Assembly: GCA_036785375.1 (NCBI GenBank)
Contig: JAWMAR010000388.1
Location: 1,488,001 to 1,552,000 of the forward strand
Reading direction: 5' to 3'
Source of the DNA: Leucoraja ocellata
Taxonomy: Eukaryota
DNA: 64,000 nt
Part shown: piece by piece, positions 38,492-39,478 of the stretch
How the letters are laid out: the number at the start of each line of letters is the position of its first letter
Numbering within the stretch: the first letter of the stretch is position 1
Made by a program: the position numbers and the translations under genes
The notes under the pieces: model-generated
The model's input: only the letters and a program-made list of their open reading frames with translations
Databases searched by the model: none
What the model was told of the DNA's origin: nothing

Positions 38492-38541
38492 CGTTGGTTA
38501 CCGTCAACATGGTGCCTCCTCCCCAGTAGTCATGATAGTAA
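38492..38541 (-). CDS. ighj: JH segment (YYHDYWGGGTMLTVTN)
   Basis: WGxG motif; donor G|GTAAG at 38491; preceded by a 23-RSS. Confidence 0.96.
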
Positions 38542-38580
38542 CACAGTGTTACATTCTATGGGCTGCCTCACACAATAACA
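38542..38580 (+). promoter_or_regulatory. JH recombination signal sequence, 23-bp spacer
   Basis: CACAGTG (38542-38548) + 23 nt + ACAATAACA (38572-38580). Confidence 0.95.
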
Positions 38581-38905
38581 TGATCTGCACAAGGTAGGCA
38601 AAAAAGAACAAATCCTGTAATTATTCGTATTTCACATCGAAAGCGAATGACTTATTGCTCTTTGAAAACAATGAATGCGTTAAATAAATCATTTCCAACA
38701 ATAATCAGATACCACGGCTCCGTGTATTAAACAGGGCAGTGAAATGTGATAAGAATTATCTACATATAAAATACAAATTACTTCAAGTTACCTATACAAC
38801 AAAATGTGCGAAAATATCCCTGGACATGTTTATGCTCTTGTTGTATGAAATATTGAATTGAAAATATCATATACTGGCCCAGACCACCGTATTATGGGTT
38901 GTGGA

Positions 38906-38933
38906 TGTTTTTGTATTGGTAGGAACCGCTGTG
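38906..38933 (-). promoter_or_regulatory. 12-bp-spacer RSS 3' of the joined VD
   Basis: CACAGCG (38933-38927) + GTTCCTACCAAT + ACAAAAACA (38914-38906). Confidence 0.94.
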
Positions 38934-39259
38934 TACAATATAGTTCCATTGGGCCCTCGCACAGTAATAGACAGCCGTGTCTTCGATCTTCAGGCTGCTG
39001 GCCGTCACGATGAAGATATTATTCGTATAGTCTTTGGACGGAGTAAATCGGCTCTCTATCCCCGGAGGGAAGTACTTGGTGTAAGTAGAACCGTAGTAGG
39101 TAAGCAGCCACTCCAGCCCCTGCCCGGGGACCTGACGGACCAAAGCCATCCAGTAGCTGCCAACACTGAACCCGCTGACTTTACAGGTCAGTGTGATGGA
39201 GCCTCCAGGAGTGGCCGTCTCTGTCTCGGGCTGGGTTAGAACGATATCGGAATGGACAC
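38934..39259 (-). CDS. ighv: VH exon (mu type) germline-joined to D sequence
   Basis: ttgcag|..[101 protein letters not shown]+AQWNYIV; both Cys present, frame open. Confidence 0.96.
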
Positions 39260-39432
39260 CTGCAAGTTAAAAACAAGGCATGAATGGCGAGGATAAAATA
39301 TTGACCATTGATCCCCGACTCTAATTATCAAGAGGAAATAATTGGGACGGTTCTAGAGTGGGTAGAAGGGGAATGGTGTAGTGGATACACCACTGGGAAA
39401 CTTGCGTGGGGAATTTGTCCAACATCACTCAC

Positions 39433-39478
39433 GGACTATTAACGCCAGGAACAAACTCAGTGAAACCGCCGACCTCAT
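39433..39478 (-). CDS. ighv: VH leader exon (MRSAVSLSLFLALIV)
   Basis: ATG at 39478; 46 nt; donor C|GTGAGT; 173-nt phase-1 intron to V. Confidence 0.93.

What the first reader, a model, noticed from the sequence alone, without database searches (positions are those of the whole stretch)
38492..39478. Germline pre-joined VD(D)-J IgM gene needing only one somatic rearrangement
Seen: after YYCAR there are 21 extra in-frame nt (GCCCAATGGAACTATATTGTA, AQWNYIV) followed directly by a 12-RSS. There is no V 23-RSS, no free D in the ~325 bp before J, and J has a 23-RSS. Established: cartilaginous-fish mu clusters are V(23)-(12)D1(22/23)-(12)D2(12)-(23)J, and germline-joined genes attributed to RAG activity in germ cells are known in sharks and skates. 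Inference: this is an inherited V-D1-D2 (or V-D2) coding joint that fixes most of CDR3 in an otherwise intact cluster. The phenomenon is known; this particular gene may be undescribed.
Basis: partly seen in the sequence, partly recalled or inferred. Interest (0 to 1): 0.8.

Follow-up and report, generated by a model that had tools for sequence, protein, structure and literature searches.

The report
Inherited pre-joined antibody gene, flipped D
This is an intact shark/skate-type IgM heavy-chain gene, present in four diverged copies with most of its third antigen-binding loop already joined in inherited DNA (a known kind of gene), but its joint lacks the normal D end and likely arose by an unusual germ-line recombination that flipped the D pieces.

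Summary
V runs in frame into AQWNYIV, then a 12-RSS, a 325-bp spacer, a 23-RSS J and intact Cmu exons. The joint is inherited: four intact copies carry it unchanged while their flanks differ by 0.4-1.4%. In this VH family 20 of 40 clusters are partly or fully pre-joined. Such genes are known from horn shark and little skate.

D2's 3' end is missing: the standard parse scores 0 bits, against 13-30 for the five other VDD-J lineages. At least 11 of 22 nt are unassigned, against 0-4 elsewhere. The last 9 nt equal an inverted D1-D2 joint flush against the heptamer (4 of 1000 shuffles; post hoc).

Best reading: germline inversion of the D's, then re-ligation of the 12-RSS (about 45%). Rivals: open-and-shut (25%) and direct hybrid joint (20%). 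A sister cluster (L044) has a D-less V(23)/(12)J layout. Expression is untested. Verdict: new variant of a known kind.

The parts
39433..39478 (-). Leader exon (46 nt, GT donor)
38956..39259 (-). VH exon up to the trimmed V end (YYCAR); no 23-RSS
38934..38955 (-). Germline junction, 22 nt, in frame (AQWNYIV), identical in 4 copies
38943..38955 (-). 13 nt not assignable under the inversion parse (inferred N region)
   Evidence: no template found
38939..38942 (-). Inferred inverted 5' end of D2 (TATA)
38934..38938 (-). Inferred inverted 5' end of D1 (reverse complement of TACAA), flush to the heptamer
38906..38933 (-). 12-RSS, the D2 3' RSS of unjoined clusters, unchanged
38581..38905 (-). D2-J spacer, 325 bp, collinear with unjoined clusters
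38542..38580 (+). J 23-RSS (faces the 12-RSS)
38492..38541 (-). JH, with 2 extra nt (TT) at the RSS border relative to most clusters
34042..34338 (-). Cmu1 exon
32364..32681 (-). Cmu2 exon
31613..31915 (-). Cmu3 exon
30109..30500 (-). Cmu4 with secretory tail and stop
26052..26179 (-). TM1 exon
25909..25917 (-). TM2 coding part (two codons and stop)

Best explanation
This is an intact IgM heavy-chain cluster whose V is already fused in inherited DNA to 22 junction bases and a 12-RSS, present in four diverged copies, and the joint likely arose in a germ-line cell by RAG inverting a joined D1-D2 piece into V and re-attaching D2's 12-RSS behind it. Shown: anatomy, intact exons, four copies, loss of D2's 3' end. 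Inferred route, each step obeying 12/23: (1) ordinary D1-D2 joint, D1 trimmed by 8 nt, no N; (2) V 23-RSS pairs with D2's 3' 12-RSS, which points the same way, so the block inverts; V is joined to the trimmed D2 3' end with about 13 N bases, and a V23/D2-12 signal joint stays in the chromosome; (3) D1's 5' 12-RSS, now pointing downstream, recombines with the V 23-RSS in that signal joint, which deletes the spacer and leaves D1's 5' end on the D2 heptamer (pseudo-hybrid joint). The gene was then duplicated. In B cells one 12/23 deletion to J would finish it, giving CDR3s predicted to start AQWN(YIV). A 5-nt in-frame microhomology with J would favour one public CDR3 where TdT is low. Confidence: inherited 0.97; some non-standard RAG joint at this RSS about 0.9; this route 0.45.
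For: Four exact copies of the junction on contig C388, all with intact exons, 0.38%, 1.3% and 1.4% diverged from the window copy over 15-17 kb. Standard parse 0 bits against 13.4-30 bits in 5 of 5 other VDD-J lineages. With the D alleles of its own subfamily only the inverted parse beats shuffles (4 of 1000). The strict run of 9 nt, both D 5' ends untrimmed, adjacent and flush to the RSS, was reached by 9 of 100000 shuffles. One contig of run X19 (organism A) reads as a signal joint between D2's 3' 12-RSS and D1's 3' 22-RSS (loose end at 38937, against the spacer), so this RSS is used in inversional pairing. L044 has D1's 5' 12-RSS directly on a trimmed J, a second hybrid-like joint. Re-use of a chromosomal signal joint after inversion is described in mammalian systems (PMC1820826, passages).
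Against: The strict statistic was defined after seeing the sequence; four parses were scored, and more were considered by eye. TATA is a palindrome in an AT-rich string. If a D2 allele found only in the other subfamily is allowed, a forward parse does as well (7 of 400 against 3 of 400). Pseudo-hybrid joints typically lose bases at the RSS side; here heptamer and D1 end are both untrimmed and have no P bases. Three events are needed. No intermediate occurs among the 40 clusters, and none of 96 signal-joint-like 14-mers lies at a cluster. 13 nt stay unexplained, and germline joints are reported to show little TdT activity (PMC2193156). The X19 joint is one contig and uses D1's RSS, not V's.
Confidence: 0.45

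Rival explanations
1. Forward V-D1-D2 coding joints with N bases, then RAG cut D2's 3' RSS in an abortive D-J attempt and closed it again (open-and-shut joint), trimming 2 nt and adding 4.
For: 7-nt exact match (38944-38938) to a D2 allele; 7 of 400 shuffles with all alleles. Indels flush with retained RSS heptamers are enriched in this family: 3-4 events against 0.14-0.28 expected (P about 0.003 for 3 or more). The partner J of this gene has 2 extra nt at its RSS border.
Against: That D2 allele occurs only in the other subfamily. With own-subfamily alleles the parse is at chance (633 of 1000). No convincing D1 remnant. The J insertion is shared with lineage C (L007-L009), whose D2 end is intact.
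Confidence: 0.25
2. One-step hybrid joint: V's coding end was joined straight to D2's 3' signal end (or D was trimmed away completely), and all 22 nt are non-templated.
For: Needs one event and predicts the precise heptamer. L044 is the mirror image with no D bases. A germline hybrid joint is documented in horn shark (PMC2193153, passages). D trimmed down to 2 nt occurs in L032.
Against: 22 N bases at one joint, against 0-4 unassigned in 10 of 10 other joints scored. It leaves the 9-nt inverted-D match as coincidence.
Confidence: 0.2
3. An ordinary VDD joint whose D bases were later altered by mutation, conversion or selection.
For: Germline CDR1/CDR2 vary far more than intron in this subfamily (10 of 30 and 20 of 33 columns against 11 of 161). 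Other VDD-J lineages carry single changes in D2. The nearest V relative, L014, is V-D1 joined.
Against: It needs at least two insertions and a substitution in D2's last 9 nt (read from the sequence, best allele) while flanks differ 2-3% from other clusters. The junction is identical in all four copies.
Confidence: 0.07
4. A somatic rearrangement from lymphocyte DNA, or an assembly artefact.
For: VDD-J intermediates are common somatically in nurse shark thymocytes (PMC2435157, passages). The copies on C388 lie in a roughly mirrored order, so some may be alleles.
Against: The same joint sits in four copies with different flanks and V substitutions; a somatic event hits one allele once. A contig of run X1 matches V plus 15 of the 22 nt exactly (weak, possibly the same sample, and short of the tool's 31-letter bridging rule).
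Confidence: 0.03

Closest known systems
Partly germline-joined IgH clusters (VDD-J, VD-DJ, VDJ) of horn shark and little skate (1988 work as summarised in PMC2193153; originals not held)
   Same: V fused in the germline, 12-RSS and J 23-RSS left, one somatic step remaining, mixed with unjoined clusters.
   Different: D2's 3' end is not on its RSS; long unassigned region; likely inverted D's; four intact copies. I could not read the original junction sequences to compare.
Germline-joined NS4 light chains of nurse shark (PMC2193156)
   Same: Joined genes nested among very similar unjoined ones, several independent events, trimming and P bases (seen here in L012, L013, L045, L047).
   Different: Those show little TdT activity and no RSS left; this joint has at least 11 unassigned nt and a retained RSS.
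Germline hybrid-joint inversion between D1 and D2 in a horn shark cluster (PMC2193153)
   Same: Non-standard RAG product fixed in the germline; an RSS attached to a coding end that is not its own.
   Different: There the spacer is inverted and both D's stay free; here the D's are inferred to be inverted into V and the spacers are gone.
Pseudo-hybrid joints from re-cleaved signal joints in mouse and human lymphocytes (PMC1820826)
   Same: Inversion, then a second rearrangement through the signal joint, leaving an RSS on a coding end.
   Different: Somatic, and usually with loss at the RSS side; here inherited and precise.
Nurse shark IgM1gj (PMC5192425, passages)
   Same: Germline-joined mu-type heavy chain.
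   Different: IgM1gj is germline-rearranged with three C domains and expressed in neonates; this gene has four C domains, still needs D-J joining, and its expression is unknown.

Membership tests
Cartilaginous-fish IgM heavy-chain cluster | One L-V, one J, Cmu1-4 with secretory tail and TM exons in one minilocus | tested here: met
Cartilaginous-fish IgM heavy-chain cluster | Unjoined relatives are V(23)-(12)D1(22)-(12)D2(12)-(23)J | tested here: met
   20 of 40 clusters
Partly germline-joined IgH cluster (VDD-J layout) | V fused, V 23-RSS and both spacers gone, 12-RSS and J 23-RSS intact | tested here: met
Partly germline-joined IgH cluster (VDD-J layout) | Inherited rather than somatic | tested here: met
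Standard V-D1-D2 coding joint | Forward D remnants with D2's 3' end kept on the 12-RSS | tested here: not met
   0 nt flush, score 0; 5 of 5 control lineages pass
Standard germline coding joint | Few or no N bases | tested here: not met
   at least 11 unassigned nt against 0-4 in 10 other joints
Hybrid or pseudo-hybrid joint | RSS attached to a coding end other than its own | tested here: inconclusive
   inverted D1 end flush to the heptamer, 4 of 1000 shuffles, post hoc; open-and-shut not excluded
Pseudo-hybrid joint | Loss or P/N bases at the RSS side | tested here: not met
   heptamer intact; feature from PMC1820826
Pseudo-hybrid joint | Prior inversion with a chromosomal signal joint | tested here: inconclusive
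   none in this assembly; a related D1/D2 signal joint in one contig of run X19
IgM1gj | Fully joined VDJ and three C domains | tested here: not met
   J unjoined, four C exons
Functional germline-joined gene | Rearranged and expressed transcripts | tested here: inconclusive
   searches gave no test

The most novel reading that the evidence does not exclude
RAG, together with TdT, acted repeatedly on one cluster in the germ line. It inverted a D1-D2 joint into V, re-cut the signal joint and built a new 7-residue CDR3 stem from antisense D and N bases, which was then amplified to four working genes. With the D-less V(23)/(12)J cluster L044 and the RSS-border scars, this genome preserves a recent record of germline RAG rebuilding locus architecture by hybrid, pseudo-hybrid and open-and-shut joints.
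Probability: 0.4. Interest if true: 0.72.

Novelty: new variant of a known kind. Interest (0 to 1): 0.52.

Why it matters
Germline joining in sharks and skates is accepted, but what I could read describes ordinary trimmed joints with little TdT and a single hybrid-joint case. An inherited joint with a long N-like region and a re-attached RSS would mean that the cell of origin had TdT and that RAG acted there several times. That bears on which cell makes these genes, and on the idea that hybrid joints reshaped antigen-receptor loci. The 40-cluster census supplies 13 distinct joined lineages beside 20 close unjoined templates, so these questions can be tested. The gene also predicts a fixed CDR3 stem that repertoire data can check at once.

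Tried and rejected
Template for the junction: none found. The longest exact matches in 9 clusters were 7-8 nt (chance level by my estimate). The 2 non-Ig genome hits with 2 mismatches are near the 0.84 expected, and their flanks are unlike the gene.

Forward D1 plus inverted D2: not above chance (53 of 400; 209 of 1000). Inherited signal joint at this RSS: 96 pattern hits, none at a cluster.

Selection on the junction: identity in four copies is unremarkable for 22 nt at 1-2% divergence (my estimate), so no claim is made. Order of events from trees: three regions gave conflicting trees with moderate support, and the output was cut; not used beyond naming L014 as nearest V. No dating was done.

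Expression: no RNA holder listed. Raw RNA runs X22 and X24 laid 0 reads, which is no test. Runs X2, X3, X4 and X17 have no contig over the junction; a hole proves nothing. 8 of the 24 listed runs were laid.

Earlier scan findings: none. Papers not held: PMC454840, PMC330358, PMC332511, PMC2569000, PMC2590587; PMC2191167 gave no passages. No supplements were read; the junction figures of PMC2435157 could bear on N length and D inversion. Scripts 15 and 17 stopped part-way and 18 timed out; the work was completed. Other VH families and IgW were not surveyed.

Full report
Observation. On the minus strand the leader (39478-39433) splices to a V exon that reads through YYCAR into AQWNYIV without a stop and meets a 12-RSS at 38933. 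A 325-bp spacer, a 23-RSS and J follow. Downstream lie four C exons, a secretory tail and TM exons, all with open frames and AG/GT sites. CH4 matches human IgM best. The cluster layout marks a cartilaginous fish; no call names the species, and its likeness to skate IgM is my recall.

Census. A V-end pattern found 40 places and a J pattern 39, and I fetched all 40. 20 are unjoined V(23)-(12)D1(22)-(12)D2(12)-(23)J. 4 are VD-D-J (L014, L031, L032, L047). 13 have the window's layout, in six junction lineages (L001-4, L005-6, L007-9, L010-11, L012, L013). L045 is VD-DJ, L022 is an out-of-frame VDJ, and L044 has D1's 5' 12-RSS directly on J. Counts are lower bounds and cover this VH family only.

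Inheritance. The 22-nt junction occurs exactly four times, all on contig C388. All four genes have intact exons. They differ from the window copy by 0.38%, 1.3% and 1.4% over 15-17 kb and by V substitutions. The roughly mirrored order on the contig means some may be alleles, but one joint on different alleles or paralogues cannot be somatic, although VDD-J intermediates are common in shark thymocytes (PMC2435157, passages seen). One contig of run X1 matches V and 15 junction bases with no difference. It does not reach the RSS and may come from the same animal, so it is weak support. The D2-J joint of L045 appears as a loose end in runs X3 and X4 of two other studies, so at least one such joint is shared across samples.

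The joint is not standard. A V-D1-D2 joint leaves D2's 3' end on its RSS. The five other VDD-J lineages fit that parse at 13.4-30 bits; this one scores 0. Ten other joints have 0-4 unassigned bases under exact matching, several of them P bases or later point changes; this one has at least 11. Little TdT activity is also what was reported for germline light-chain joints (PMC2193156, parts 3 and 4 of 7 read). No template for the extra bases was found.

Which route. Four parses were scored against shuffles. With all D alleles: forward D's with a free D2 end, 7 of 400; inverted D2 then inverted D1 flush to the RSS, 3 of 400; forward D1 with inverted D2, 53 of 400. The D2 allele behind the forward match is confined to the other subfamily. 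With own-subfamily alleles the forward parse falls to 633 of 1000 and the inverted one stays at 4 of 1000. Its 9-nt run (38942-38934) equals the reverse complement of D1's first five and D2's first four bases, adjacent and untrimmed; 9 of 100000 shuffles reach it, on a statistic defined afterwards. This is the order expected if a D1-D2 joint were inverted into V through D2's 3' RSS and the signal joint were then re-used, a path described for mammalian substrates (PMC1820826, passages). One contig of run X19 reads as a signal joint of this same 12-RSS with D1's 22-RSS. I infer its first four heptamer letters from the laid part.

Against this route: it takes three events; both ends are precise, unlike typical pseudo-hybrid joints; 13 bases stay unexplained; and no intermediate is in the assembly. 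Open-and-shut joints look real in this family. There are 3-4 indels flush with retained heptamers (J +2 nt; J -3 nt in L043; D2 -3 nt in L047; -4 nt in L045) against 0.14-0.28 expected from 43 gap runs in 3700 columns. This junction, L044 and the ambiguous L048 were left out of that count; L048 was left out of the background and L013 of its J-C part. A direct hybrid joint with 22 N bases is simplest and has a mirror image in L044. My odds are inversion 0.45, open-and-shut 0.25, direct hybrid 0.2, mutated standard joint 0.07, somatic or artefact 0.03. The first three all need RAG to have cut at this RSS in the germ line.

Function (inferred). Both remaining RSSs match those of unjoined clusters, so one deletion should complete the gene, with diversity only at the last joint. 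A 5-nt sequence shared in frame by junction and J would favour one in-frame join. Expression was not tested successfully.

What is known. Partly joined VDD-J clusters in horn shark and little skate, and one germline hybrid-joint inversion, are described in PMC2193153 (passages); see also PMC5192425 (passages). Eight searches listed no paper whose title, abstract start or passages I saw describes an inherited inverted-D joint or a D-less V-J heavy-chain cluster. The key 1988-2008 primary papers and all supplements were not seen, so absence from print is not established.

Verdict. The gene works like a VDD-J gene and shares its layout, but it fails the test for a standard coding joint. New variant of a known kind; interest 0.52.

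Noticed in passing
L044 (G000:C1356, about 249750-250730, minus strand): IgM cluster with V(23-RSS) and D1's 5' 12-RSS placed directly on a J trimmed by 5 nt, with no D bases: a light-chain-like V-J heavy-chain locus. CH1-CH4 and TM1 translate without stops. Looks like a germline hybrid joint.
   Followed up: partly
L043, L045, L047, L048, L001-L004, L007-L009: Small losses or gains exactly at coding ends whose RSS is still attached, as open-and-shut joints would leave; enriched over background indels.
   Followed up: partly
window 38905-38937, run X19: One contig reads as a signal joint between D2's 3' 12-RSS and D1's 3' 22-RSS, i.e. inversional D-D joining in organism A; somatic or inherited is unknown.
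   Followed up: no
L045; runs X3, X4: The same D2-J germline joint appears in contigs of two other studies.
   Followed up: no
L031 and L010-L011: L031's V-D1 joint is the exact start of the L010/L011 VDD joint, suggesting stepwise germline joining; the 5' tree does not make them sisters.
   Followed up: partly
L010, L011, L013: The last D2 base next to the heptamer is A instead of G in two separate lineages; the site fits an AID hotspot motif (motif recalled, not tested).
   Followed up: no
window V exon, FR2 start (MALVRQ): The conserved FR2 tryptophan of VH domains is Leu (Met in L022) in 40 of 40 clusters.
   Followed up: no
window V exon CDR1 and CDR2: Germline CDRs are hypervariable among 13 close clusters: 10 of 30 and 20 of 33 columns vary against 11 of 161 in the intron.
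   Followed up: partly
L014 and L022: L014 (VD-D-J) has frameshifts in C exons and looks like a pseudogene; L022 is an out-of-frame germline VDJ with intact C exons.
   Followed up: no
G000:C388 25 kb-2034 kb: The six IgM clusters found on this contig are all of the VDD-J layout and lie in roughly mirrored order (B, A, A, A, A, B); true inverted duplication or merged haplotypes is unresolved.
   Followed up: partly
window 17003-22330 and 34749-35176: Broken LINE-like reverse-transcriptase and Penelope-like ORF pieces around and inside the gene; labels recalled from motifs, no family search run.
   Followed up: no
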